A stretch of DNA of 38,795 nt from the UHGV virus genome UHGV-0423091. One strand, given 5' to 3'. Position 1 is the first letter of the stretch; each line of letters begins with the position of its first letter. The notes under the pieces are model-generated. The model had not been told where the DNA came from and did no database searches. It saw only the letters and a list, made by a program, of their open reading frames with translations. This document shows, in pieces, positions 2,939 to 37,415 of the stretch. This stretch comes from a virus. The translations under genes and the position numbers were made by a program.

Positions 2939-3483
2939 TATAATCCTCCGGGTAATCTGGTTCCTGCTGCTGCCCCGATTGGCGCAGGGGTGCTTTGAGT
3001 AAACGGACTCCACGTCCCACCAAACATCTGGTACGCACCGTATGCCTTCAGAGGCGCAGTGAGCAATGTTGTTGCTGCTCCCACATTCCCCTGTTTACGG
3101 GCTGAACTGGCTTCTGCTTTATAGTTGGCAGCCTGAACCTGATAACCGTAAGCCTCGCGTTGCGCGTTATTCACCGTCGTCAGAGAATCAAGAGCGCCAA
3201 ACTGGGCAGTGTCGCCAAATATATCCAGCGCGTTACCTGTAGATAAATCAGCGCCGGTAGCCCCCATTGTCGCCGCCTGTGTACCAAGCCGCTGTCGGGT
3301 CTCTCTGCGACGTTGCTCAGCTTCAGCGTTACCTCTGTTTATTGCATCATTTGCCTGAGTAGTGGCTATATCTGCGTTAGCTTCTGCAACCTTCGAGGCA
3401 TACTTTCCCTGTTGGTACTGGGTGTATGCCTGAATGCCACTCATGGCGAGCATTGCACCACCAGCAATAACCGGATCGCACAT
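2938..3483 (-). CDS. internal virion protein, 181 aa, N-terminal hydrophobic segment, Ala/Gln-rich
   Basis: Track ORF; GGAG SD 8 nt upstream of ATG 3483; start overlaps upstream stop; composition typical of small ejection/internal proteins. Confidence 0.5.
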   Translation of the reverse strand: MCDPVIAGGAMLAMSGIQAYTQYQQGKYASKVAEANADIATTQANDAINRGNAEAEQRRRETRQRLGTQAATMGATGADLSTGNALDIFGDTAQFGALDSLTTVNNAQREAYGYQVQAANYKAEASSARKQGNVGAATTLLTAPLKAYGAYQMFGGTWSPFTQSTPAPIGAAAGTRLPGGL

Positions 3484-3947
3484 TATTTTCTCTCCATGTG
3501 AAATCTGTGGAAATTAAGACCAAGGGCACCATAAGGCGCGGCTTCTTCAAGCCTGAATCCAAGCCAGTGCAGCCATGCTTTGGCAACATGGTTTCGCTCG
3601 TCGACGTAGTTTTCCAGGCGCGGATAAACTGCCAGCATCTGCTGCAATACAGGGCGGCAGTGGCGAAGAAATGTCTTCTGATATTTTTCAATACGGCTGG
3701 TTCCGACCAGCCAGGGCGTACCATTGCCACCGATCATTGACGCCGGAGATACGCCAAACATGGTTACCAGTTCTCCGTTCGCAAATCCTGACCAGGCCAT
3801 AGTCGCAGTACGCAGACCAACACGCAGCGCATCTTCGGTAGTCATCAGTGATACCGCATACAGTTCGTCAATATCAGCCTGACGAACATCCGGCAAAATC
3901 ATCTGAAGATGCTCTTCGGTTGCGGGAATAATTTGAACATCGATCAT
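3483..3947 (-). CDS. hypothetical virion-associated protein, 154 aa
   Basis: Track ORF; translationally coupled on both sides (ATGA overlap at 3945-3949). Confidence 0.5.
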   Translation of the reverse strand: MIDVQIIPATEEHLQMILPDVRQADIDELYAVSLMTTEDALRVGLRTATMAWSGFANGELVTMFGVSPASMIGGNGTPWLVGTSRIEKYQKTFLRHCRPVLQQMLAVYPRLENYVDERNHVAKAWLHWLGFRLEEAAPYGALGLNFHRFHMERK

Positions 3948-6418
3948 CAGAATCCCCCAACAGTAAGGCGAGGAATAACGGCAAGAACAGACAGCGGCAA
4001 CGGATCAAGCTGACGGATTTTTACACGCCCGTTTTTGCCCCAGTTACTGTCCAGTTTCACTTCTACTTTTCCGGTAGCATCATCAACAGGATCATCGTAG
4101 AACTCGAATTCACGCTGTGGATATTCGTACCATTTACCGCCGGGCGTAGTCGCCCAGATGCCGCGACTGGCATTCACAACCAGAGTAACGGAGGGGATCA
4201 CCTGTTTTTTGTCCAGCAGCGTTTCCTGTCCGTTAATGTTGATATCCAGTGTTTCGAATTCAGCAGTTATTGGCAGGCCGATGTGCACTACAGCCCCCGG
4301 AGATTCCAGCGTGACGGCACCTCCGGAAACCACTTTCTGTGGTTCCACGTTCGCATCAGAGAGAATGTTTACGGTCTGGCCTTCAAGATGAGACAGGCCT
4401 CCAAATGTCCGGCGCGCCATCTGCCAGTTCGTGGTGGCCACATTCCTGAGGGATGGCGGGACGTTCCTGTTAGCACGAACCACTACAGCGGTATTACTGG
4501 TTACAGAAATAATGTCGCAACGTAATTCTTTTGACACCTCATCGCCAGTATCAGGATCAGTTCCGGTATAAGGGAACTGTAGTTGCGCGCCGACATCACT
4601 ACTGGTGAAGTACGCACCACCAGAAACACTGATTGTATATTCCGCGCGGTAATCCCATTCGCCAGAACCACCAGTGATGATCATCGTTCTGTCAGACGTA
4701 TTTCTTCCATCATAGCTAAGGCCAGAATCAACAAAGAAAGCATCTTCATCGCTGGTAAATAAACGGCTGGACAGTCGCTCGATGTATCTCACTGTTTGCC
4801 CGTTAACGGTTCGGTTAACGACGAAATACACCGCATCTTCATTGCCTTCGCTGATACTGCATGTGCTTTCATATTTTCCGGTACTGGATTGTGGTGCCCA
4901 TGCAAAAACCTGCTGATCACGCAAATAGGTCATCACCAGTAATTTACCGTCATCACGGATGCAGAAGGCGCTGGAGTAAGGGACTATTGAGAAGCACCAG
5001 TCAACAATGCTGTGCTTCTGAAAAAGATGATTGGCAAGGATAGTAAGGTCGTTCCCCTGATAGCCGTCAACATCGAATGAGTAGGCGAGATCACGGACAA
5101 CACTGCCTTTCTCCTGGACGAACAGAGCAATATTCGCCACGGCAATTGGTGGGACATTGCTCGAGCCATTTGATCCCTGAGAGCTGAATGCAAATGATGA
5201 TGGGGTAAGCACTTTGTTCTGGTCGCCAGTGATGACGTACTCACCTCCGGAAGTCAGCGCCACCAGCGAACCAACATCAATCAGGTGACGGATCTCATTA
5301 ACCTGACGCCCGGCATAGGTGTAGATAATTCTGTCGTCATCCTGCGTAGGATTGCTTTTGCCAAAATCCTTATAATCCCCAGTACGGCTGGCCCAGATAG
5401 TCTGAGGGAACGCAGTCGATGCGGCGAAGTAAAGACGTTGTTGATAATAAACAACAGTGCCAGGATAACCATTAACACTGTTCCAGGCATATTTAGCCCA
5501 TTTATAGCTGGCATTATCCTCGCCAACGACCTGCGAAGGGATATAGGAAATCACCTCGGCAGTTGCAGTAGTGCCGTTTACAGCAGTGATACGGGCAATG
5601 CCAAAACCACTGTGCAGATACTCCCACTCAATGCCAGTATCATCATCACCGGATCCGCCCCAGCCATCCCATGATGTGCCTTCTGTATGCGAAGGGCGCA
5701 AAGTGCCTGTTTTGCCTGCTGTAACGGCGCGATAGTAGTTACTGTCTGCACGGCGAATATCGCCAATCGACGTACTCTTACTGGTTTCCCATACCGGCAC
5801 TGAATCCACTGCAGGCTGTTCCAGATAGAACAATTTGCCTACCTGCTCCGCGCCAAAAATAGAGGCGCTTGCCGTTAACGTAATTGTCCCGGTGCTGGCG
5901 CTGGCATAAACCGTCACTGACTCGTCAATATTGATATCTTCAAATGGCCCGTTCTTCGTTACCACATCAACCAGTTGCCAGTTGTCATGCGCATAGCGGC
6001 GCAACTCTTTCGGCGGGTATGCCGGGTGAACCAGCGTAAGCACGTCGGCGCTTTGCGTAAATTTAATTCGGAACAGATCGGCTTCAGTATATGGCGTGGC
6101 AATTTCATAAATAACATTGCTGCTGTTCAGCACCAACGCACCATCTTTGATAACGCGCATGTACTGGTGCCCGAACTCCAGAGCATAGGTCTGAACCGTC
6201 GAGAACTGGAACGGGATCAGGCGGCATTTCCGATTTGGGTATTTGGCGGCACCGACAAAACGCGTACCAGGTCGATTCTCAACGCCGCCATACTGCCGCA
6301 CGATAAAGTTATCGCACTTGCGCAATGCCACCTGGTACTTCGCCATGTCGATACGACCGTACAACGACGGTCCAATCTCACCACCGGCAAAGCTGGGCTG
6401 GATCCAACTGATAGCCAT
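3947..6418 (-). CDS. large tail structural protein (tail hub/tube-type), 823 aa
   Basis: Track ORF; size and position directly after the adaptor-like gene in the morphogenesis operon; no enzymatic motif seen. Confidence 0.6.
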   Translation of the reverse strand: MAISWIQPSFAGGEIGPSLYGRIDMAKYQVALRKCDNFIVRQYGGVENRPGTRFVGAAKYPNRKCRLIPFQFSTVQTYALEFGHQYMRVIKDGALVLNSSNVIYEIATPYTEADLFRIKFTQSADVLTLVHPAYPPKELRRYAHDNWQLVDVVTKNGPFEDINIDESVTVYASASTGTITLTASASIFGAEQVGKLFYLEQPAVDSVPVWETSKSTSIGDIRRADSNYYRAVTAGKTGTLRPSHTEGTSWDGWGGSGDDDTGIEWEYLHSGFGIARITAVNGTTATAEVISYIPSQVVGEDNASYKWAKYAWNSVNGYPGTVVYYQQRLYFAASTAFPQTIWASRTGDYKDFGKSNPTQDDDRIIYTYAGRQVNEIRHLIDVGSLVALTSGGEYVITGDQNKVLTPSSFAFSSQGSNGSSNVPPIAVANIALFVQEKGSVVRDLAYSFDVDGYQGNDLTILANHLFQKHSIVDWCFSIVPYSSAFCIRDDGKLLVMTYLRDQQVFAWAPQSSTGKYESTCSISEGNEDAVYFVVNRTVNGQTVRYIERLSSRLFTSDEDAFFVDSGLSYDGRNTSDRTMIITGGSGEWDYRAEYTISVSGGAYFTSSDVGAQLQFPYTGTDPDTGDEVSKELRCDIISVTSNTAVVVRANRNVPPSLRNVATTNWQMARRTFGGLSHLEGQTVNILSDANVEPQKVVSGGAVTLESPGAVVHIGLPITAEFETLDININGQETLLDKKQVIPSVTLVVNASRGIWATTPGGKWYEYPQREFEFYDDPVDDATGKVEVKLDSNWGKNGRVKIRQLDPLPLSVLAVIPRLTVGGF

Positions 6419-12551: not shown

Positions 12552-12628
12552 GTGGCATTAGCTCAGTTGGACAGAGCAACCGCCTTCTAAGCGGTTGGTC
12601 GCAGGTTCGAATCCTGCATGCCACGCCA
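12552..12628 (+). tRNA. tRNA-Arg (anticodon TCT, reads AGA/AGG), argU-like
   Basis: Hand-folded cloverleaf: 7-bp acceptor GTGGCAT/ATGCCAC, D-arm GCTC...GAGC, anticodon stem ACCGC/GCGGT with loop CTTCTAA, T-arm GCAGG-TTCGAAT-CCTGC, discriminator G and encoded CCA. Confidence 0.85.
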
Positions 12629-21184: not shown

Positions 21185-21769
21185 ATGAAAAGTATCCAGG
21201 ACGTCCGCAGGCAAAATCTCAACGACTTGATCGACCGTGAATTCAATGGTGTTCAGACGCGGATGGCAGAAAAACTTGGAACTCAGGCAAATCTGGTAAA
21301 CCGCTGGGCTCTTGGCAAGAAGGTTATCGGCGACCAGGTTGCACGAAAAATTGAAGCTGCCGCCAATAAACCCCGTAACTGGCTTGATATTGATCGCTCG
21401 CTTTCTCAGGAGGGTTTTCAGCCTGTCGGCCCGAGCGATATAGGTCAGCTGGCGGCTCACAACCTGGAACGCTGGATGAGCGAAAGCCGCGACCTTTCAA
21501 CGCAGGGAAAACTACACCGCGCATCCGGCGTCGCCCAGGTGACAATCAGCCGCCTGTTAAACAATGAGGTCAGCGTTTCCATTTCCACCCTGGAGAATGT
21601 TGCATCCGCATTCGGGCGTCACGGCTATGAATTACTGATTCACCCGCACGACCCTGCGACCATCAACTATGATCGCTCGCGCTACGCATTGTTACCCGAA
21701 ACCGAGAAAGCAAAGATCGAAAGTTACATTGAATTTGTCATCAACCAGAACGAAAAAAACAAACAATAA
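21185..21769 (+). CDS. phage repressor (CI role), 194 aa, two HTH-like segments, no S24 peptidase domain
   Basis: Divergent from the Cro-like gene; HTH-like segments near residues 25-45 and 110-135; no Ala-Gly/Ser-Lys autocleavage module; no SD (leaderless-like start). Confidence 0.65.
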   Translation: MKSIQDVRRQNLNDLIDREFNGVQTRMAEKLGTQANLVNRWALGKKVIGDQVARKIEAAANKPRNWLDIDRSLSQEGFQPVGPSDIGQLAAHNLERWMSESRDLSTQGKLHRASGVAQVTISRLLNNEVSVSISTLENVASAFGRHGYELLIHPHDPATINYDRSRYALLPETEKAKIESYIEFVINQNEKNKQ

Positions 21770-29159: not shown

Positions 29160-31766
29160 TTATTTCCTGCAAACTCCAGATGATGTTAATCCATCAAAAA
29201 TAACCTGCACTCTGGCAATAACAACATCAACTCCAGAAGTCGTTTCACTTGCATAACCAAGTTTTATTTTAGATACAATATCCTGAGTAAGTTCAGATAT
29301 TTCAGTTTCTGCAATGTTACCAGAGGCCATGTGATTATCGTATGCCATAGAATGAATTCCATTATTGACATCGATTGAACTAGTATGTTTGTGAAAAATA
29401 GATGGGTTTACCTGAAACGAATTTGAACCGATAAGATCAGAAGATACTCCATTCATCACTGCAGTACAGCGTGGAATATTATTATCGGTTATTGTCATAT
29501 GCAGACGGTTACCAGTTAACCCCTCACCAAGTGTGACATAATACGCCAATTCTCCACCTGCATATTGTTTCCCCTCAACAATAACAGTAATCCCTCTTAA
29601 TTTCTGATTAGCTAGCAAAAACTTATTACTGTCTATATAGCATTTATTTGCGGAACCAAAAACAGCCCCTTCTAAAATATCTGATGAATAGGAATAAATA
29701 AGGTCACCTGAAACAAAGGAAAGAATATCAGATACGTTTCCTTTTGTAGATAAGTTAGGAGAATAGCTATTAACTATTTCATATTGTCCTGTGATAAAAT
29801 CAAGGTAAACGCCATCAGTTTTCATCTCTTTAAAGAAAATGCTATTAAAGCATCCATCAAGAACCGGTGGATATATTCTAGAGCTTGCATAAGCTGTTGG
29901 GTGATTCTTATTATTACCACTACCAGGCGAATAAACATCTTCGTTAGTCATTGACTTTTTAAGCTTAACAGGAATCATCGGCTGCATATCAATTTTGCAG
30001 TTCCCTGAACCACCGATGCGAGGATAAAATAAACCACCAAACCTTACAATATTACTACTGAATAGTATTTCGTTATCGTTAAGTGTTATCTCAACGAAGT
30101 TTCCAATAAGTTTAAATTCAACTGAAAACAAACCAAGTGGAGCAGATAATTTAACAATATTGCGCATAAAAACACCTACAGTCCCTGTTGATGCAGTATA
30201 GTGTGTGGTTTCAAAGGCAGAGCCTGTATATTTCAAGTTAATGAAATTATTATGGTATGAAGACAATTGAAATTGAATCCCAGAACTAAGGATTTCAATA
30301 TCTACAAATTGAATCCTTACGGAGTAAGCATATGATAAATCTTCATATTCATAAGGCAATGTAACATCTTTTGAAATAGTTGCCCTCACATAATTACCAG
30401 AAACCACATCAATCCCATCACGTACAGCATTAAAGTAACGATTAAAATCAATAAGCCCAGCGCCAACATACTGCGCATATGACCGAGTCCATCCTGCCAT
30501 TGCGTTTCGTCCATTCTGAGCTTCTAAACTGCTAAATTCAGAGTCACTTGTGGTACTTGATGGGAGGATATTTGTACAAAAAACAATTTCAGGCATTGAA
30601 GTAATATCATTCAGTTCAGCCATCAATTTAAAAAAAGTTTTCTGCGGGAAGTTACCAACATCCCAACCATCTCCGTCATTCATGCCAAAAGCAATAATAA
30701 CAACATCAGGGTTAATATCACGAATGTAATCAATCCAGCGTCTGTTCGTGTCTGAATACCATGGGTACTGTGAGTTATAAGAAGTAATTGCTGGTGTATC
30801 TTTTCCAAGGTCATAGTACCTCATTCCACCAATTGCTCTGTTAAATAAAGTAGAACTTGGGAATTTCTCTTGCAAAACTCTCTTAAGATGAGCGGCAAAA
30901 ATGCTTGATCGATCCACTGTGCTTATATTATATGGGGCACTTAAGCTGTCACCAACTAACACTATTTTTGAGTTAGGCCTTGATAATCTCTCAAGTGTTT
31001 TAGATGTGACTAAACTGCATGAATTAATGAACTGAGCACTATTTAGTGTCTGTTCAAGTGTATCACCAAATCTGGTACCAACGTATGATGATCCGTTGAC
31101 ACTTGCTAGCTTAAGGCATAAATCAGCAGTATCTGTAATTGAAAAAATAGGAACAGGACGTCCTAAACTGTCATACCCCTGAATTGAGTTTGCCCTAGAA
31201 GATGCTGATGCCATTTCGCTTACTATCTCAGGGAAGCGGAGTGTTTTAGATATGTTGCTGTTAATAACTCCTTTGATAGATGAGTCTGTATATTTCTTCG
31301 TGGAAGCGTCCTGAGGAAATAATGGATCATCAAGGTTACGAATACGATTGCCTAGTGCATCGTAGTAAGTGGCACTAAATGATGGTTTACGAAGAGCCAG
31401 CCGAGCCATGCTTTTGACTAACTGGATCAGCATCGTTAGCTTATCAAAAGCATCCTCATGCACTTCCGCAAAGAACTTACCCTGATTGCGCAGATCAGTT
31501 TCCTGTGTAACCGGTAGCTCTCGTGATATAGAAATCTTATAGCCATTGGCCAACGCCTTCGACAATATTACATTTCCACCATTGTATCCTCCGGCCCCGG
31601 TAACTATATAATCAGTATCAAGAGTCAGTACGGTGATATTTTCATGAATATCAACAACCTGCACAATCAAATCAGATTTATTGAAAACCCTAAAGGCATA
31701 CGGAAACGATGTCGTAACGCCGTTACCGGTGTATTCGTTGTGGTCAACTTCGGTTGAGACCGTCAT
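29160..31766 (-). CDS. tailspike / tail fibre with T7 gp17-like N-terminal anchor and central SGNH (GDSL) esterase-like domain, 868 aa
   Basis: N-terminus YTGNGVTTSFPYAFRVF...LIVQVV resembles the T7 tail-fibre anchor; GDSL block (IVLVGDSLS, residues ~268-276, DNA ~30939-30965) and GxND block (AFGMNDG, ~358-364); AT-rich C-terminal half; GGAG SD. Confidence 0.8.
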   Translation of the reverse strand: MTVSTEVDHNEYTGNGVTTSFPYAFRVFNKSDLIVQVVDIHENITVLTLDTDYIVTGAGGYNGGNVILSKALANGYKISISRELPVTQETDLRNQGKFFAEVHEDAFDKLTMLIQLVKSMARLALRKPSFSATYYDALGNRIRNLDDPLFPQDASTKKYTDSSIKGVINSNISKTLRFPEIVSEMASASSRANSIQGYDSLGRPVPIFSITDTADLCLKLASVNGSSYVGTRFGDTLEQTLNSAQFINSCSLVTSKTLERLSRPNSKIVLVGDSLSAPYNISTVDRSSIFAAHLKRVLQEKFPSSTLFNRAIGGMRYYDLGKDTPAITSYNSQYPWYSDTNRRWIDYIRDINPDVVIIAFGMNDGDGWDVGNFPQKTFFKLMAELNDITSMPEIVFCTNILPSSTTSDSEFSSLEAQNGRNAMAGWTRSYAQYVGAGLIDFNRYFNAVRDGIDVVSGNYVRATISKDVTLPYEYEDLSYAYSVRIQFVDIEILSSGIQFQLSSYHNNFINLKYTGSAFETTHYTASTGTVGVFMRNIVKLSAPLGLFSVEFKLIGNFVEITLNDNEILFSSNIVRFGGLFYPRIGGSGNCKIDMQPMIPVKLKKSMTNEDVYSPGSGNNKNHPTAYASSRIYPPVLDGCFNSIFFKEMKTDGVYLDFITGQYEIVNSYSPNLSTKGNVSDILSFVSGDLIYSYSSDILEGAVFGSANKCYIDSNKFLLANQKLRGITVIVEGKQYAGGELAYYVTLGEGLTGNRLHMTITDNNIPRCTAVMNGVSSDLIGSNSFQVNPSIFHKHTSSIDVNNGIHSMAYDNHMASGNIAETEISELTQDIVSKIKLGYASETTSGVDVVIARVQVIFDGLTSSGVCRK

Positions 31767-31870: not shown

Positions 31871-31885
31871 TTACCTTTATGGTAA
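31871..31885. promoter_or_regulatory. operator-like palindrome TTACC-tttat-GGTAA
   Basis: Perfect copy in the divergent control region between the tailspike and antirepressor operons. Confidence 0.45.
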
Positions 31886-31924
31886 TTTGCAAAACGTGCT
31901 GGATAGCAAACAAATTATTTGATA

Positions 31925-31940
31925 CTGTATAAATATACAG
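31925..31940. promoter_or_regulatory. LexA (SOS) box CTGTATAAATATACAG
   Basis: Perfect CTGT-N8-ACAG with AT-rich spacer, flanked TA...TT, 22 bp upstream of ATG 31962. Confidence 0.7.
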
Positions 31941-31961
31941 TTATTGCATGGAGAAGATAAG

Positions 31962-32219
31962 ATGCAGCGGTATCACTATCCACTGGAAGACGGATTTACC
32001 GAAAGGATTCACACGCCGGGAGGCGTCAGGTCACTGGTGGAGGGATCGCACTTGATGAAATTACTCCGGGATCTCGATAAGGATGGATTTAATGTCGATG
32101 GCCCACTTGCCGAACTGACTGCACTGATTAACTACGTCACCAGCTCACAGATGTCTATGCAGGATCTGCAAACACATCTCGACTATTGTGCCGAACAATT
32201 ACGAAAACAAACCAGATAA
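31962..32219 (+). CDS. small protein, 85 aa, paralogous to the C-terminal domain of the downstream antirepressor; candidate small antirepressor
   Basis: Track ORF trimmed to ATG 31962 (GGAGAAG SD); by-eye alignment to antirepressor residues ~150-225 (IHxPxGV...E.S.LM.LL..L..DG..V.G..AEL...DxQTH). Confidence 0.55.
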   Translation: MQRYHYPLEDGFTERIHTPGGVRSLVEGSHLMKLLRDLDKDGFNVDGPLAELTALINYVTSSQMSMQDLQTHLDYCAEQLRKQTR

Positions 32220-32222
32220 GGT

Positions 32223-32265
32223 TTGCAATTACCAAGTGGAGTGCTTATATTTACCATTGCGGTAA
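32223..32265 (+). promoter_or_regulatory. sigma70-like promoter (TTGCAA-N17-TATATT) with operator-like site TTACC-attgc-GGTAA (32251-32265) over the start region
   Basis: Near-consensus -35/-10 with 17-bp spacer; palindrome overlaps the -10 and predicted +1. Confidence 0.45.
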
Positions 32266-32532
32266 ATTTACATCGCACTCCTCTTGTGCCATAGTAATCG
32301 GGCACTGGCAAAATCCAGTGCCGGGATTGGCGTTCCGGATTACTACAGAGGCACATATGCCGCATAAGCGGTTTTTTTATGTGTAAAGCGCACCTATTCT
32401 ATGGTGGGCTGTGTGGGGGCACCGAAAGGTGCGCCGGGTTCCTTTGTAGCCGGTTACGCCAACCCTGCACAGTTCACCACCAACCGATTGGCGTCGGTAG
32501 TGGTGATTAACCTAACTACAAAGGTGATCACT

Positions 32533-33219
32533 ATGACTGCTAACGTAACCCCATCTGTTTTTCATTTTGAATCAGAAGCAACCATTCGAGCCATTGTTAT
32601 TGATGGAAATCCTTGGTTTGTTGCCAAAGACGTTATTAAAGCTCTTCAACTGACAAACCCCACTATGTCAATAAAATCTCTTGATGATGATGAAAGGGCT
32701 AAATTTAACTTAGGCCGTCAAGGCGAAACCAATATTATCAACGAGTCAGGCCTCTACACACTGATCCTCCGCTGCCGCGACGCAGTGACACCAGGCACTA
32801 TCCCCTACCGCTTTCGTAAATGGGTTACAGGTGAGGTTCTTCCTCAGATCCGCCGCACCGGAAGTTACATTAAAAACTCGCTCCCGCAGGAAGAACGCAT
32901 AAAGATGGTTGCCGACCAAGTAGCCAACGCCACGGCGTCAGCAGTGATGCAGGCAATGAAGATAGAGAACAAAACCTACAGTGCACCACTGAAGCCCGGC
33001 TACCGCAGCCTGATTCATTCGCCGTCTGGTGTTCTCGGCCTGACGGAGAACTCACTGCTGATGAATTTGCTGAACCAGTTACAGGAAGACGGGCATGACG
33101 TATCGGGCGCGGCGGCGGAGCTGACCACCATGTTCTGCTACATCGTCGGTGTGAGCAAATGCCTGCGTGATATCCAGACGCACGCGGAGTACATCAACGA
33201 CAAAGCAGGGTTCTTCTGA
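32533..33219 (+). CDS. antirepressor, Bro-N domain family, 228 aa
   Basis: Track ORF 32401..33219 trimmed to ATG 32533 (AAGGTG SD); N-terminal Bro-N-like segment IRAIVIDGNPWFVAKDV...LYTLILRC. Confidence 0.7.
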   Translation: MTANVTPSVFHFESEATIRAIVIDGNPWFVAKDVIKALQLTNPTMSIKSLDDDERAKFNLGRQGETNIINESGLYTLILRCRDAVTPGTIPYRFRKWVTGEVLPQIRRTGSYIKNSLPQEERIKMVADQVANATASAVMQAMKIENKTYSAPLKPGYRSLIHSPSGVLGLTENSLLMNLLNQLQEDGHDVSGAAAELTTMFCYIVGVSKCLRDIQTHAEYINDKAGFF

Positions 33220-33348: not shown

Positions 33349-33675
33349 ATGACAAAACTTGGATTCGTGATGAGAGGTCCGGTAAGAAGCGGAACTCATG
33401 CAAAGCGTAGCAAGAGTCGTATTTTTACTGGTAAGGTTGTAGCACGTAAATCAGCTATTGGCTCGTTCAATAGTGAAAATGCGGCATTGCGCCATATTTT
33501 TATCAGCACAAAGCCAAGAGCATCCGCTGATGTGCATACAATGACTATTCCTATCACAAAGAATATAAAGCGGATAAAAAAGCTCTCATCTGCAGAATCA
33601 AAAGAGATATCTTTCCGCCAGCTTAACTCATTAGAAACGCATATGAAGGAAGAGGAATTCGATGTTTTTGAGTGA
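33349..33675 (+). CDS. highly basic small protein, 108 aa (accessory module gene 1)
   Basis: GGAG SD 7 nt upstream; Lys/Arg-rich; AT-rich codon usage; overlaps the next gene by 14 bp. Confidence 0.5.
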   Translation: MTKLGFVMRGPVRSGTHAKRSKSRIFTGKVVARKSAIGSFNSENAALRHIFISTKPRASADVHTMTIPITKNIKRIKKLSSAESKEISFRQLNSLETHMKEEEFDVFE

Positions 33676-34174
33676 GTATAGCGGGAAGGTTATACCTACT
33701 GGTGAGTTTAAAACTGATGACTTTCTGATTTCGCTAAAAGATGCTTTTAAACAACACTGGCGTCATGGTCATCATCCTGATCTGGGAAAAGATACTCTTT
33801 TTGAAAGACCAGACGAAGTATTAGGTTTCCATCTCAGAAAGGTTCATGTCAATATTGGTGAATATGCATCATATTCATACTCATGTACTGAACAGTGTTG
33901 GGATGAGTGGTCATATGGATTGATTGATGAACAAGGAAATTACAGGCCAAAACCAACCAGTAACGCATATCTCATATATGCAGTCAATGAAATAAGAGAT
34001 GCAGCCTTACTAGCTTATTGGGACCCGCCCGCACACACCAAAGCTAACGCAAAAGTTTGGATGGATTCCGTATTGAATTTCACAAAATTATTTCATGAAC
34101 GAACGAATACAGCTCCACTTAGTAGAAATGTTTATCCGTGGGATTATTCGTACAAATCCAAAAAGCCTGCATAG
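33662..34174 (+). CDS. hypothetical protein, 170 aa, His/Trp/Tyr-rich (accessory module gene 2); loose by-eye resemblance to YafO-type toxins
   Basis: GAGG SD; translationally coupled to gene 1; resemblance is from memory and low-confidence. Confidence 0.5.
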   Translation: MFLSEYSGKVIPTGEFKTDDFLISLKDAFKQHWRHGHHPDLGKDTLFERPDEVLGFHLRKVHVNIGEYASYSYSCTEQCWDEWSYGLIDEQGNYRPKPTSNAYLIYAVNEIRDAALLAYWDPPAHTKANAKVWMDSVLNFTKLFHERTNTAPLSRNVYPWDYSYKSKKPA

Positions 34175-34940: not shown

Positions 34941-37415
34941 TTATTGCGGAGTGACATCCTGAGGTCGCCACCAGTATGTCTGATTAAACTCTTTCTTCGA
35001 ACGTTGCTCCATTTTACGCAAATAGCCTGGTGAAAAATACTCCTGCATCTGGTTAAAGATCATATGATCGAGAGCCGCCTTTAAGTACCAGAGATTCGCA
35101 CCTGGCATCAAACCTTTCCCCAGCTTCACCAGATCACCACCAGTCTGCTCACTCTTCCCTTCCACAGCATTTAACGGTATGCCCTGAGCAATCTTCACTA
35201 CGTCATCAACCAGACCAGCTACCGGGCCAAGCATCGACGCCAGCGCGCCGCTTCCGTACCTAGTGTGATCTGACAATAAAAAGTCACCATAAAGGCCAAG
35301 ACCACCACCTTTCAGTAGAGCACCAAGCCAGAATTTTGCGGCATCTTCTCCTGTCATCTCTCGAGGATTACGACCAGACGCAAGGTCGTTAAGTTGTTGC
35401 GACAAAGCGCCAAGAATGGTCGTACTGGCAATAAACGTCGCAATATATACCGCACGCCCACCAGCAGACGGCATACCCATAGCGCGTGACCAGTGACGCA
35501 TAACAACCGAGATAGGGAACGATTTAAACAGGAAAACACTTCTCGTTAATTCACCTTTCCATGTTCCACGCTGAATACCAGAACCGGTTATCAGTTGCTC
35601 ACGTGCTCCCGGTGTAATAACAGCCATATCAACTTCTTCAGTTACGGCACCGAGCAGTTTACGCATTGCCTCAAATTTCACGCGTTCAGGCTCACCAAGA
35701 TGTTTAACTGCTGAATCAGGGATACGCATAATGCTTTCCGGTGTCAGCATCGTATTATTACCGTTCCCCCAGTCCTCCTGTTGCGCCAGCTTCCATACGC
35801 TCCAGTCTGTGTCAGTAATCCCTTTGCTTTTCAGGATACGAAAATCAGAGTCATCGAGGCTACGAAGGTCTGGTGTTCGTGACACTACTTCTCCCAGGCT
35901 TCCCATCATGGTTACGCCATAGGCGCGCTTGTGCGCATCTGACCATGCTGTAAGCCCACTGGCACGCATTACCGCCGTTGCCGCCCAACGAGACACTGAC
36001 GGCCCCATATTATCCATCGCCCAGCGGTTAACGCTGCCAAGTAGAGATTCCATCGCCAGACCAGCGCGGCGCGCCCGCGCAAGTTCTGTACGGTTCGTTG
36101 GGTCCATAGCTTCAAGCTGGTTGCGGAATAACTGGTTCATTGGAAGGTTGGTAACCTTCGCAGACAGATACATGGTTCCAAGATCAGAGAACGATGACAG
36201 CAACGCGGATCCGAGTCTGCTGGCAACCAGCCAGTTGCGGATATTGTCAGACCATCGCGCGATGTGCGGATTCGCTACAGGCTGTGTCTTTCCGGAAATA
36301 AAGTTGTACAGATTCTCTGTGTTGTTCGCCAGCCGCTCGACTTTACCGGTTTTACTCGGGTTAGCTGTTGCCGTTTCTGCCTTCACCTGATCAAGAAGAG
36401 AGCGGAAAACATGATCGGGGTTTGGGCCATATGTTTCCACCAGTGCAATATCTTTACTGATACCTTCCAGGTGACCGACCATGATTTCCCATAGAGAGCG
36501 ATCGCCATAAAGTTGCTGATATTGCAGATAGGAATCTGCATCTTTGAAATGTATCTGTCGTGATGCATTACCCCGGTTAGCACGTGCGCCGGAAATTCGC
36601 ATTCCGATATCAGTAAGCTTATTCAGCCCACCAGTAGCGATCGTGTTATAAGCCTCTCCAAGAAATGCAGACAACTCGGCATCGTTCATCAGTTGTCCAT
36701 CGGCTCGGATATAATATTTGCGATCCAGCTTACCTATAACATCGCTAACCCACTTATCCTTTGATACCGCCCCAACCTTTTCCATAGAATGATGTTGAGG
36801 GATCCCCCAGTTTTCGAGATAGCCAATGTCCCCACCAGCATCATTAAACCGGCGGCGCAGCAGCTCTGTAACTTCTCTCCACGCCTTAGCACCTTTTCTT
36901 GCTTTAGCATTGCCAGTATTTTGCCCCCGCATTTCATATACCAGGTCACGTACGCCCGCTTCATCTTCAAACAGACCAAAAAAGCGAGGATCAACTGCTT
37001 CGAATGCCTCCTGCAATTGACTCAATGCATAATCACGGGTGGCTTTTGTTCTGGATTCAACAGAGAGGAAATTAGATTTACCGTCTGCATTAAAAGCTAT
37101 AGTACGGTTAAGAGCGCCAAGTTTCCCATCAGCCCCTTGATAGCTATTGATAAATTTATCCAATCTCTGACGCGCGGCTATAGTAAGAGCCACACGACGT
37201 TTCTTTAATGCCGCTTCTCGCTGTAATTCTTCAGATGCCAATTGTGCTGCTCGATATAGCCGCTCTGATTCGGAAAGTTGTCGCCACGACATCGGGTCAT
37301 CACGAGCAATGGAGCGCATATTTCGATAAATGCGGTCTTCAATGTTCTGTATTTCTCGCGCCGTTAACGTGCGCTGCGCCGCCTGCTGGACCGCTTGTAT
37401 ACATTCCTGTCTCAT
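34941..37415 (-). CDS. large internal virion (ejection/core-type) protein, 824 aa
   Basis: Track ORF; size and position within the late operon; no enzymatic motif recognised. Confidence 0.6.
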   Translation of the reverse strand: MRQECIQAVQQAAQRTLTAREIQNIEDRIYRNMRSIARDDPMSWRQLSESERLYRAAQLASEELQREAALKKRRVALTIAARQRLDKFINSYQGADGKLGALNRTIAFNADGKSNFLSVESRTKATRDYALSQLQEAFEAVDPRFFGLFEDEAGVRDLVYEMRGQNTGNAKARKGAKAWREVTELLRRRFNDAGGDIGYLENWGIPQHHSMEKVGAVSKDKWVSDVIGKLDRKYYIRADGQLMNDAELSAFLGEAYNTIATGGLNKLTDIGMRISGARANRGNASRQIHFKDADSYLQYQQLYGDRSLWEIMVGHLEGISKDIALVETYGPNPDHVFRSLLDQVKAETATANPSKTGKVERLANNTENLYNFISGKTQPVANPHIARWSDNIRNWLVASRLGSALLSSFSDLGTMYLSAKVTNLPMNQLFRNQLEAMDPTNRTELARARRAGLAMESLLGSVNRWAMDNMGPSVSRWAATAVMRASGLTAWSDAHKRAYGVTMMGSLGEVVSRTPDLRSLDDSDFRILKSKGITDTDWSVWKLAQQEDWGNGNNTMLTPESIMRIPDSAVKHLGEPERVKFEAMRKLLGAVTEEVDMAVITPGAREQLITGSGIQRGTWKGELTRSVFLFKSFPISVVMRHWSRAMGMPSAGGRAVYIATFIASTTILGALSQQLNDLASGRNPREMTGEDAAKFWLGALLKGGGLGLYGDFLLSDHTRYGSGALASMLGPVAGLVDDVVKIAQGIPLNAVEGKSEQTGGDLVKLGKGLMPGANLWYLKAALDHMIFNQMQEYFSPGYLRKMEQRSKKEFNQTYWWRPQDVTPQ

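What the first reader, a model, noticed from the sequence alone, without database searches (positions are those of the whole stretch)
31871..33219. SOS-wired induction: LexA box in front of an antirepressor operon containing a duplicated antirepressor C-domain
CTGTATAAATATACAG at 31925-31940 is a near-consensus E. coli LexA box, 22 bp before the first gene of a plus-strand operon. That gene (85 aa) is paralogous to the C-terminal third of the downstream Bro-N antirepressor. The phage repressor has no recognisable S24 autocleavage domain, so induction is probably by LexA-derepressed antirepressor (as in coliphage 186 Tum, N15 AntC or Salmonella Gifsy phages) rather than RecA-stimulated repressor cleavage. 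The standalone C-domain copy may be the actual repressor-binding module or a modulator of the full-length antirepressor.
Basis: partly seen in the sequence, partly recalled or inferred. Interest (0 to 1): 0.7.

Follow-up and report, generated by a model that had tools for sequence, protein, structure and literature searches.

The report
SOS-controlled phage antirepressor plus riboregulated paralogue
This is the E. coli version of a prophage-induction switch already solved in Salmonella phage SPC32H, in which a LexA-repressed 85-aa antirepressor disables a repressor that cannot cleave itself. Next to it sits a separate second antirepressor that carries the same repressor-binding domain but is controlled by a P1-type antisense RNA, so the two genes are not one operon.

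Summary
TACTGTATAAATATACAGTT (31923-31942) is the only LexA-box-like site in the window. It lies 21 nt upstream of an 85-aa gene (31962-32219), and that protein is 40% identical to the C-terminal ~80 residues of the downstream Bro-N protein (32533-33219).

The SOS-antirepressor reading is right, but the system is already known. The 85-aa protein is 88% identical to SPC32H Ant (PDB 5D50). The window's repressor (21185-21769) is a homologue of SPC32H Rep with HTH domains only and no S24 domain. The LexA box is orthologous to the SPC32H box, whose ACAG-to-AAAG change is one of only two differences from the variant SPC32N.

The "operon" is not supported. The 313-nt gap contains:
- a promoter-like site;
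- an IsrK-type sRNA with an intrinsic terminator (32302-32379);
- a C4 antisense RNA (32397-32484).

The C4 loops pair with the Bro-N gene's Shine-Dalgarno region (32516-32524) and with 32488-32494. These pairings covary in ten phages.

The locus is therefore two units: SPC32H-type Ant under LexA, and a P1 immI / Gifsy-1 isrK-type riboregulated Bro-N::Ant-domain antirepressor. SPC32H lacks the second unit. About 300 of 5426 complete E. coli genomes carry both.

Novelty: new member of a known kind. Interest is modest.

The parts
31923..31942 (.). LexA operator (SOS box) TACTGTATAAATATACAGTT; core CTGT-N8-ACAG at 31925-31940
   Evidence: 18/20 to consensus and unique in the window. PWM 27.6 bits against a next best of 9.5. 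CTGT/ACAG are kept while the spacer varies in phiV10, SPC32H and a Klebsiella phage. The orthologous SPC32H box carries the SPC32N point change.
31950..31956 (+). Shine-Dalgarno of ant (GGAGAAG), 9 nt after the LexA box
   Evidence: Read from the sequence; conserved in the alignment. The -10 element and transcription start of any ant promoter must therefore lie in or next to the box (inference from geometry).
31962..32219 (+). ant: 85-aa SPC32H-type antirepressor
   Evidence: PDB 5D50_E 'Anti-repressor protein', E 1e-46. 88% identical to the annotated ant of SPC32H. PHROG 450.
31871..31885 (.). Palindrome TTACCTTTATGGTAA, a probable operator of the phage master regulator, between tailspike and ant
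   Evidence: The motif has 16 sites against 0.8 expected. It is conserved at this position in 4 phages and clusters in the rep/cro gap of SPC32H. Assignment to Rep is an inference.
32251..32265 (.). Palindrome TTACCATTGCGGTAA abutting the -35 hexamer of the IsrK promoter-like site
   Evidence: The same juxtaposition (TTACCAAAATGGTAAATTTACA) occurs in Klebsiella phage L003.
32267..32295 (+). Promoter-like site TTTACA-N17-CATAGT (TG-extended); the predicted start, about 32302, coincides with the first base of the IsrK model
   Evidence: Identical hexamers and spacing in the Klebsiella phage. A second candidate, TTGCAA-N17-TATATT, lies at 32223-32251.
32302..32379 (+). IsrK-type sRNA carrying C4 target copies b1 (TTGGCGT 32327-32333) and a1 (CTACAGAGG 32343-32351), ending in an intrinsic terminator (GCCGCATAAGCGGT + T7, 32359-32379)
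   Evidence: Rfam RF01394 scores 71.2 bits (gathering score 50). RF03163 c4-a1b1 scores 39 bits, below its gathering score of 46.7. Terminator; complementarity.
32397..32484 (+). C4 antisense RNA; loop a' CCUUUGUAG at 32441-32449, single-stranded b' ACGCCAA at 32456-32462
   Evidence: Rfam RF01695 scores 84 bits (gathering score 45), full length. The MFE fold exposes both elements.
32488..32524 (+). C4 targets in the Bro-N leader: b2 TTGGCGT (32488-32494) and a2 CTACAAAGG (32516-32524). a2 overlaps the Shine-Dalgarno AAGGTG (32521-32526)
   Evidence: Exact complementarity. a'/a2 and b'/b2 covary in 10 phages.
32533..33219 (+). Second antirepressor, 228 aa: Bro-N domain (residues 18-104, 32584-32844) fused to an Ant-like domain (residues 145-226, 32965-33210)
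   Evidence: Pfam PF02498. 40% identical to Ant. PHROG 450 and 130. 100% identical over residues 78-228 to ZX5 ORF4, whose overexpression lowers ZX5 lysogeny about 1000-fold (PMC9782041).
21185..21769 (+). rep: 194-aa SPC32H-type repressor with two HTH regions and no S24 domain; target of Ant
   Evidence: PDB 5D50_A E 4e-42 and 5D4Z_A E 4e-20. Pfam HTH_3 only. 100% identical to phiV10 and ZX5 Rep, 41.8% to SPC32H Rep.

Best explanation
The locus holds two adjacent but separate antirepressor units of an epsilon15/phiV10-like (Uetakevirus) E. coli phage.

Unit 1 is the SPC32H-type lytic switch. Host LexA binds the box at 31923-31942, which sits on the ant promoter and start region. DNA damage removes LexA, and the 85-aa Ant is made. 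Ant binds the non-cleavable repressor Rep (21185-21769) and takes it off its operators, so the prophage is induced. LexA control is inferred from orthology. Ant-Rep binding is inferred from 88% identity to the crystallised Ant.

Unit 2 starts right after the ant stop codon. Its parts, in order:
- a promoter-like site abutted by a Rep-type palindrome;
- an IsrK-type sRNA that ends in a terminator and carries decoy copies (b1, a1) of the C4 targets;
- a C4 antisense RNA;
- a Bro-N protein whose C-terminal domain is a paralogue of Ant.

As in P1 immI, C4 pairs through its a' and b' elements with b2 and a2 in the leader. This covers the Shine-Dalgarno sequence and keeps the second antirepressor untranslated until C4 is outnumbered or titrated. 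The pairing and its covariation are shown here. The repression itself is inferred.

The Ant-like domain is the repressor-binding module. It occurs alone, or fused to Bro-N or AntA N-domains.
For: Ant identity: PDB 5D50_E E 1e-46; the annotated ant of SPC32H is 88% identical and lies in the same place, between the tailspike and ejection-protein genes.

Rep identity and lack of S24.

LexA box strength, uniqueness and conservation. SPC32H and SPC32N differ at 2 nt, and one of them turns ACAG into AAAG in the orthologous box. This matches my recollection of Kim & Ryu 2013.

Separate unit 2:
- Rfam IsrK 71 bits and C4 84 bits; terminator and promoter-like sites.
- SPC32H lacks unit 2 entirely, and DNA homology to the Salmonella phages stops at about the ant stop codon.
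- A Klebsiella relative has a strong terminator between ant and the conserved IsrK promoter.
- C4 a' is 9/9 complementary to the SD region and b' is 7/7 complementary to b2 and b1.
- a'/a2/a1 and b'/b2/b1 covary across 10 phages.
- The IsrK-C4-antirepressor cassette is known from P1, Gifsy-1 and APSE (PMC4825925, PMC7313666).

Bro-N::Ant-domain activity: ZX5 ORF4 is identical over residues 78-228 and ZX5 Rep is identical. ORF4 overexpression cut lysogens from 1e9 to 1e6 (PMC9782041).

Domain shuffling (Bro-N, AntA or standalone).
Against: - No sigma-70 promoter scoring 9/12 or better was found over the LexA box, so the ant promoter is inferred only from geometry and orthology.
- Rep is only 41.8% identical to SPC32H Rep while Ant is 88% identical. 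Binding of this Ant to this Rep is therefore likely but not shown.
- There is no terminator between the ant stop (32219) and the IsrK terminator (32359). Transcripts from the LexA-controlled promoter probably run into IsrK and may leak further, so some co-transcription with the Bro-N gene cannot be excluded.
- In Gifsy-1 the IsrK sRNA was reported to activate translation of the downstream antirepressor through a leader ORF, not to act as a C4 decoy. The leader ORFs here are not conserved.
- The a1b1 Rfam model scores below its gathering threshold.
- The primary SPC32H papers could not be read.
Confidence: 0.8

Rival explanations
1. One LexA-controlled operon runs from the box through the 85-aa gene to the Bro-N gene. 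The Bro-N protein is the main antirepressor, and the small protein is a duplicated accessory or modulator.
For: Both genes are on the same strand, and no terminator lies between the ant stop and 32359. The IsrK terminator is leaky in Gifsy-1 (PMC4825925). The Bro-N homologue has antirepressor activity in ZX5.
Against: The small protein alone is the crystallised, functional Ant of SPC32H, which has no Bro-N gene at all. The gap holds its own promoter-like site, two sRNAs and a terminator. The Bro-N Shine-Dalgarno is the covarying target of C4. In a Klebsiella relative a strong terminator and a toxin-antitoxin-like pair separate the two units.
Confidence: 0.08
2. Unit 2 is not part of this prophage's own induction pathway. 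It is an anti-immunity (immI-like) device used on infection or against co-resident related prophages. The Bro-N::Ant-domain protein is made briefly after DNA entry, before C4 builds up. It biases the lysis-lysogeny decision or inactivates the Rep of a resident relative.
For: This is how P1 and P22 Ant are used (established knowledge). The same IsrK-C4 cassette sits in front of unrelated downstream genes in Stx, APSE, phiP27 and Hafnia phages. The Ant-domain subfamily differs from small Ant (about 37-40% identity). The ZX5 experiment measured lysogenisation after infection, not induction.
Against: It is compatible with, rather than exclusive of, the main explanation. Nothing in the sequence separates the two uses. 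A Rep-type palindrome at the IsrK promoter suggests control by the resident Rep.
Confidence: 0.3
3. The LexA-box match is a chance AT-rich palindrome with no regulatory role.
For: No strong sigma-70 promoter was detected over it. The bare CTGT-N8-ACAG pattern is not enriched in the window.
Against: It matches the consensus at 18/20 against 0 matches in shuffles. Its PWM score is above every training site. CTGT/ACAG are conserved with a variable spacer at a fixed distance from the start codon in four phages of three host genera. One of the two differences between SPC32H and SPC32N falls in the orthologous box.
Confidence: 0.01

Closest known systems
Salmonella phage SPC32H Rep-Ant-LexA antirepression switch (Kim & Ryu 2013 J Virol; Kim et al. 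2016 PNAS; PDB 5D50, 5D4Z)
   Same: Orthologous 85/86-aa Ant (88% identical). Homologous two-domain HTH Rep without S24. LexA box at the same distance from the ant start codon. Same genome position between the tailspike and ejection-protein genes. Same phage genus.
   Different: Rep is only 41.8% identical. SPC32H has nothing between ant and the next gene, whereas this phage has IsrK, C4, a Bro-N::Ant-domain protein and about 1.5 kb of further cargo inserted right after the ant stop.
P1/P7 immI region: c4 antisense RNA controlling icd-ant (Citron & Schuster 1990; Rfam RF01695, RF03163)
   Same: A C4 RNA with a' and b' elements. Target copies lie upstream (a1/b1) and downstream (a2/b2) of c4 on the same transcript. 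The downstream copy covers a ribosome-binding site in front of an antirepressor. Specificity covaries between phages.
   Different: The target Shine-Dalgarno is that of the antirepressor gene itself. No conserved icd-like leader ORF exists. The antirepressor is a Bro-N::SPC32H-Ant-domain fusion, not P1 Ant1/2. The repressor it presumably attacks is SPC32H-type Rep, not P1 C1.
Gifsy-1 isrK-orf45-anrP locus (Hershko-Shalev et al. 2016, PMC4825925)
   Same: An IsrK sRNA with its own promoter and a leaky intrinsic terminator, followed by a stable processed RNA (STnc1160, at the position C4 holds here) and an antirepressor-like gene.
   Different: In Gifsy-1, translation of orf45 is required for anrP expression and IsrK acts as an activator. 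Here the small ORFs across C4 vary in frame and length among close relatives and lack Shine-Dalgarno sequences. There is no antQ context.
E. coli phage vB_EcoP_ZX5 ORF4 anti-repressor and ORF21 repressor (Li et al. 2022, PMC9782041)
   Same: Rep is 100% identical. The Bro-N antirepressor is 82% identical overall and 100% identical over residues 78-228. The locus layout is the same.
   Different: That paper does not mention LexA, SPC32H, the small Ant (annotated as hypothetical) or the sRNAs. The N-terminal 77 residues of the Bro-N domain differ.
LexA-controlled antirepressors of other phages: 186 Tum, N15 AntC, Gifsy GfoA/GfhA (Lemire et al. 2011, PMC3121763)
   Same: The same logic: LexA represses a small antirepressor that inactivates a non-cleavable repressor.
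   Different: No sequence relationship was detected. Ant has no Pfam or NCBIfam family, and its only PDB relative is 5D50. No direct comparison with the Tum, AntC or Gfo sequences was run.

Membership tests
SPC32H-type Rep-Ant-LexA switch | Small (~86 aa) Ant homologous to SPC32H Ant | tested here: met
   PDB 5D50_E E 1e-46 over residues 2-84; 88% identical to the annotated ant of KC911856.
SPC32H-type Rep-Ant-LexA switch | Repressor homologous to SPC32H Rep and lacking an S24 autocleavage domain | tested here: met
   5D50_A E 4e-42, full length. Pfam HTH_3 only. No S24 motif or domain anywhere in the window.
SPC32H-type Rep-Ant-LexA switch | LexA box overlapping the ant promoter region | tested here: met
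   18/20 to consensus, unique in the window, PWM 27.6 bits. Orthologous position and spacing to the SPC32H box. The promoter itself was not located.
SPC32H-type Rep-Ant-LexA switch | LexA binding, SOS-dependent ant expression, and Ant-Rep complex formation | not testable with these tools
   Needs EMSA, reporter and pull-down experiments. Only orthology supports it.
P1/P7 immI C4 antisense control | C4 RNA matching the family covariance model | tested here: met
   RF01695 scores 84 bits against a gathering score of 45, model positions 1-87.
P1/P7 immI C4 antisense control | a'/b' elements complementary to a2/b2 covering the ribosome-binding site of the downstream gene | tested here: met
   a' 32441-49 pairs 9/9 with 32516-24, which overlaps the SD. 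b' 32456-62 pairs 7/7 with 32488-94. Covariation in 10 phages.
P1/P7 immI C4 antisense control | Upstream a1/b1 target copy | tested here: inconclusive
   b1 is exact (7 nt) and a1 is 9 nt with one G-U pair. Rfam c4-a1b1 scores 39 bits, below its gathering score of 46.7. The same region passes the IsrK model.
P1/P7 immI C4 antisense control | icd-like leader ORF translationally coupled to ant | tested here: not met
   ORFs across C4 differ in frame and length (15-43 aa, or fused) among relatives, and none has an SD.
Gifsy-1 isrK locus | IsrK sRNA (RF01394) with an intrinsic terminator upstream of an antirepressor gene | tested here: met
   71.2 bits against a gathering score of 50; terminator at 32359-32379.
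Lambda-type RecA-stimulated autocleaving repressor | Peptidase S24 C-terminal domain with a Ser-Lys dyad | tested here: not met
   No S24 hit at E<=1 in Rep. No G[DMN]SM motif in six frames and no LexA similarity.
Bro-N antirepressors | N-terminal Bro-N domain (PF02498) | tested here: met
   E 5e-20, residues 18-104 of the 228-aa protein.

The most novel reading that the evidence does not exclude
The two antirepressors are wired in series into a commitment circuit:
1. SOS removes LexA, and small Ant is made.
2. Ant strips Rep from the TTACC-N5-GGTAA palindrome that abuts the IsrK promoter. In addition, ant transcripts run on into IsrK, since no terminator lies before 32359.
3. IsrK RNA carrying the b1/a1 decoy sites therefore surges and titrates C4.
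4. The Shine-Dalgarno of the Bro-N::Ant-domain gene is freed, and a second antirepressor with the same Rep-binding fold is made. It may also co-assemble with Ant into mixed tetramers.
5. This locks Rep off.

If true, this would be a protein-plus-sponge-RNA positive feedback that makes SOS induction irreversible. The 3' UTR of an SOS gene would be acting as an sRNA sponge.
Probability: 0.15. Interest if true: 0.6.

Novelty: new member of a known kind. Interest (0 to 1): 0.3.

Why it matters
- It transfers a structurally solved induction mechanism from a Salmonella phage to the phiV10/ZX5 group of E. coli prophages. About 300 of 5426 complete E. coli genomes carry the whole arrangement, including relatives in O157 and other pathogenic strains.
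- The true Ant is still annotated 'hypothetical' or 'unknown function' in RefSeq, Pfam, NCBIfam and PHROGs. It was also overlooked in the one experimental paper on this immunity group.
- The SPC32H Ant fold turns out to be a portable repressor-binding module, fused to Bro-N or AntA domains or standing alone.
- The locus is a compact natural case in which one repressor faces two antirepressors with different inputs: SOS through LexA, and an antisense-RNA threshold.

Tried and rejected
- The primary SPC32H papers (PMC3807360, PMC4983836) are not held. What I say about them rests on my memory of their abstracts, on secondary citations and on the SPC32H/SPC32N genome comparison.
- The promoter scan found no sigma-70 site of 9/12 or better at the LexA box. 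Hand inspection gave only weak -35/-10 pairs, so no ant promoter is claimed.
- The big-database search with small Ant returned only standalone 85-86-aa proteins. The fused forms appeared only when the Bro-N C-terminal part was used as the query. This reflects the sensitivity limit of the word index, not biology.
- RNAduplex energies for C4 against its targets were uninformative, because the tool cannot leave the 21-nt gap between b2 and a2 unpaired. I rely on exact complementarity and covariation instead.
- A conserved orf45/icd-like leader peptide across C4 was considered and rejected.
- PADLOC and NCBIfam gave nothing for the locus proteins or the downstream cargo genes.
- A hidden S24 repressor elsewhere in the window was considered and rejected.
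- A tRNA-like element in the gap was considered. ARAGORN finds only tRNA-Arg at 12552-12628.
Full report
**1. Context**

The window is a complete or near-complete genome of an epsilon15/phiV10-like podovirus (genus Uetakevirus) of E. coli. The first 25 kb are 98% identical over about 90% of their length to phages phiv142-3, PAS61 and ZX5. The finding lies between the tailspike gene (29160-31766, minus strand) and the ejection-protein gene (34941-37415, minus strand).

**2.

- CTGTATAAATATACAG is at 31925-31940.
- With its flanks, TACTGTATAAATATACAGTT (31923-31942) matches the 20-nt E. coli consensus at 18 positions. It is the only site in the window within 3 mismatches, with none in 100 shuffles.
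- A PWM built from 24 LexA operators recalled from memory (so approximate) scores it 27.6 bits. That is above every training site. The next best site in the window scores 9.5, and the best of 200 shuffles scores 19.8.
- The start codon is at 31962, so the gap is 21 nt rather than 22. GGAG lies at 31950.
- The 85-aa product aligns with residues 147-224 of the downstream 228-aa Bro-N protein (32533-33219) at 40% identity, E 1e-15. Both hit PHROG 450.

**3. The small protein is a known, crystallised antirepressor**

- It matches PDB 5D50 chain E, 'Anti-repressor protein', at E 1e-46.
- It is 88% identical to the annotated ant of Salmonella phage SPC32H, which sits at the same place in that genome.
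- The window's repressor (21185-21769, divergent from a Cro-like gene) matches 5D50 chain A, 'Repressor', at E 4e-42 over its full length. Its C-terminal half matches 5D4Z.
- Pfam sees only HTH domains in it. No S24 motif or domain occurs anywhere in the window.
- From memory of the abstract of Kim & Ryu 2013 (paper not held): Rep is not cleaved during SOS. ant is repressed by LexA at a site overlapping its promoter. A single base change in that site makes the variant SPC32N constitutively lytic.
- I checked that last point directly. The two deposited genomes differ at only two positions. One of them changes the box CTGTATGTTTATACAG to CTGTATGTTTATAAAG, immediately upstream of ant.
- The window's box aligns with it, with the same 21-nt distance to the ATG. 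CTGT and ACAG are kept while the spacer varies in phiV10, SPC32H and a Klebsiella phage.
- The SOS-antirepressor reading is therefore correct, and the system is an orthologue of a published one.

**4. The 'operon' is two units**

The 313 nt between the genes (32220-32532) are not a spacer. Rfam finds two sRNAs:

| Element | Coordinates | Rfam model | Score | Gathering score |
|---|---|---|---|---|
| IsrK-type sRNA | 32302-32378 | RF01394 | 71 bits | 50 |
| C4 antisense RNA | 32397-32484 | RF01695 | 84 bits | 45 |

- IsrK ends in a canonical intrinsic terminator (GCCGCATAAGCGGT followed by T7, 32359-32379).
- A promoter-like site, TTTACA-N17-CATAGT with a TG extension (32267-32295), would start transcription at about 32302. 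That is the first base of the IsrK model.
- SPC32H has none of this. Its ant is followed directly by the next gene, and the whole genome has no IsrK or C4 match.
- DNA similarity of the Salmonella phages to the window ends at about the ant stop codon. Unit 2 is therefore an insertion relative to SPC32H.
- In Klebsiella phage ST512-KPC3phi13.3 the same two units are present. There they are separated by two small ORFs and a strong terminator (AAGCCCGCGTTGCGGGCTT followed by a T-run). The IsrK promoter-like hexamers are identical to those in the window.
- This argues that unit 2 is transcribed on its own.

**5. The C4 RNA targets the Bro-N gene's ribosome-binding site**

| C4 element | Sequence and coordinates | Target(s) |
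|---|---|---|
| a' (hairpin loop) | CCUUUGUAG, 32441-32449 | a2 CTACAAAGG, 32516-32524, perfectly complementary; overlaps the SD AAGGTG, 9 nt before the ATG at 32533. a1 CTACAGAGG, 32343-32351 in IsrK, pairs with one G-U |
| b' (single-stranded) | ACGCCAA, 32456-32462 | b2 TTGGCGT, 32488-32494, and b1 at 32327-32333 inside IsrK; both perfectly complementary |

Across ten phages, a' takes seven different sequences and b' four. The phages are the window, ZX5, phiV10, Tyrion, the Klebsiella phage, Hafnia yong2, VT2-Sakai, 2H10, APSE-7 and phiP27. In every case the downstream targets, and usually the IsrK copies, change to match. In every case a2 sits on the Shine-Dalgarno of the next gene.

Even between the window and its 96%-identical relatives the triplet changes together:

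| Phage | a' | a2 | a1 |
|---|---|---|---|
| Window | CCTTTGTAG | CTACAAAGG | CTACAGAGG |
| ZX5 / phiV10 | CCTTTTAG | CTAAAAGG | CTAAAAGG |

This is the signature of the P1/P7 immI mechanism (Citron & Schuster 1990, cited in PMC7313666), in which C4 blocks translation of the antirepressor operon.

The same tandem of IsrK, a processed stable RNA and an antirepressor-like gene was studied in Gifsy-1. There the IsrK promoter drives both the short sRNA and a read-through mRNA, and IsrK supplied in trans switches on antirepressor translation (PMC4825925). Those authors invoke a leader ORF (orf45). Here the small ORFs that cross C4 differ in frame and length even among close relatives and lack Shine-Dalgarno sequences. 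I therefore do not claim a leader peptide.

**6. The Bro-N protein is a real antirepressor carrying the Ant module**

- Its residues 78-228 are 100% identical to ORF4 of phage ZX5, and ZX5's Rep is identical to the window's.
- Overexpression of ORF4 reduced ZX5 lysogens from 1e9 to 1e6 per ml (PMC9782041).
- That paper does not mention LexA, SPC32H, the small Ant or the sRNAs.
- Database searches show the Ant-like C-domain fused to Bro-N (PF02498), fused to AntA/AntB (PF08346), or standing alone as proteins of about 95 aa in Enterobacteriaceae. The small-Ant subfamily is always standalone.
- The domain therefore behaves as a portable repressor-binding module.

**7. How the locus most likely works**

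- Shown: the parts, their homologies and the RNA complementarities.
- Inferred from orthology: LexA represses ant. SOS leads to Ant production. Ant removes Rep.
- Inferred from the P1 and Gifsy-1 precedents: C4 keeps the second antirepressor untranslated until the ratio of target or decoy RNA to C4 rises.
- Open: when unit 2 fires.

A 15-bp palindrome, TTACC-N5-GGTAA, occurs 16 times in the window against 0.8 expected, always between genes. SPC32H has 18 copies against 0.6 expected, including three in its rep/cro gap. It is probably the operator of the master regulator.

Copies lie upstream of ant (31871), against the -35 hexamer of the IsrK promoter-like site (32251; same arrangement in the Klebsiella phage), and before the next gene pair (33292). 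If Rep binds there, unit 2 would be derepressed only after Ant has acted, which would give positive feedback. That idea, together with read-through of ant transcripts into the IsrK decoy, is the most novel reading. I give it about 0.15, because the Klebsiella arrangement shows that read-through coupling is not conserved.

**8. Verdict**

- The finding is accurate, and its central interpretation is right.
- The switch is a known one (SPC32H). The second module is a known type (C4/IsrK-controlled antirepressor), and the arrangement is common in E. coli prophages.
- The corrections are that there is no single operon and that the small protein is the principal characterised antirepressor.
- The residual interest lies in two antirepressors that share one binding fold but take two different inputs. 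There is also an annotation gap: Ant is unnamed in Pfam, NCBIfam, PHROGs and RefSeq.

Noticed in passing
window 12215, 12832, 15734, 15752, 18722, 18784, 20730, 21067, 21115, 21827, 21889, 26911, 28846, 31871, 32251, 33292 (15-bp sites): The palindrome TTACC-N5-GGTAA occurs 16 times (up to 1 mismatch) against 0.8 expected, almost always between genes. Two copies lie in the cro/rep gap and two lie after rep. SPC32H has 18 copies against 0.6 expected, with three in its rep/cro gap. It is probably the operator of Rep (or of Cro), scattered over many transcription units as P1 C1 operators are. It is puzzling that phages whose Reps are only 42% identical share the half-site.
   Followed up: partly
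window 33349-34174 (+): Two overlapping genes (108 aa and 170 aa; PHROG 5933 and 1651, both of unknown function) follow the Bro-N gene and are preceded by an operator-like palindrome (33292). The 170-aa protein has a sub-threshold YafO_toxin hit (E 9.5e-4). PADLOC and NCBIfam give nothing. They are also present in ZX5 but absent from phiV10. This may be a toxin-antitoxin or moron cassette.
   Followed up: partly
L003 (Klebsiella phage ST512-KPC3phi13.3) 3346-3825: An 85-aa and a 65-aa ORF lie between ant and IsrK. By eye they look like a HicB/HicA-type pair, but no family search was run. They are followed by a strong intrinsic terminator. The same intergenic slot accepts different cargo in different phages.
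   Followed up: no
L001 (phiV10) 3333-4012: The phiV10 Bro-N::Ant-domain gene is split. The annotated 194-aa CDS is followed by a 29-aa CDS, and tblastn shows the Ant-like domain continuing in another frame. The second antirepressor is probably inactivated in the type phage.
   Followed up: partly
window 32401-33219 (+): In this window only, the ATG inside the conserved 5' end of C4 (TATGGTGGG) opens a frame that runs without a stop into the Bro-N gene, giving a 272-aa ORF. In ZX5, phiV10, Tyrion and the Klebsiella phage the equivalent frame stops after 15-35 codons, so the extension is probably incidental.
   Followed up: yes
window 31962-32219; A3 alignment: The small Ant has no name in Pfam, NCBIfam, PHROGs (phrog_450, 'unknown function') or RefSeq ('hypothetical protein'), although a crystal structure exists. 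Separately, the Klebsiella small Ant carries the motif DGHDVSGAAAEL. That motif is otherwise typical of the Bro-N-fused subfamily, which hints at exchange between the two paralogues.
   Followed up: partly
window 29160-31766 (-): The 868-aa tailspike shares only its N-terminus with the epsilon15 and phiV10 tail fibres. It contains a GDSL-like motif (IVLVGDSLSAPY), which suggests an SGNH esterase (O-antigen deacetylase?) receptor-binding domain. NCBIfam gave no hit, and Pfam was not run on it.
   Followed up: no
window 32233-32286: A 12-bp inverted repeat (CAAGTGGAGTGC / GCACTCCTCTTG, 92% complementary, 30 nt apart) brackets the operator-like palindrome and the -35 hexamer of the IsrK promoter-like site. 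If it is transcribed from the ant promoter, it would form a hairpin in the ant 3' UTR. Its function is unknown.
   Followed up: no
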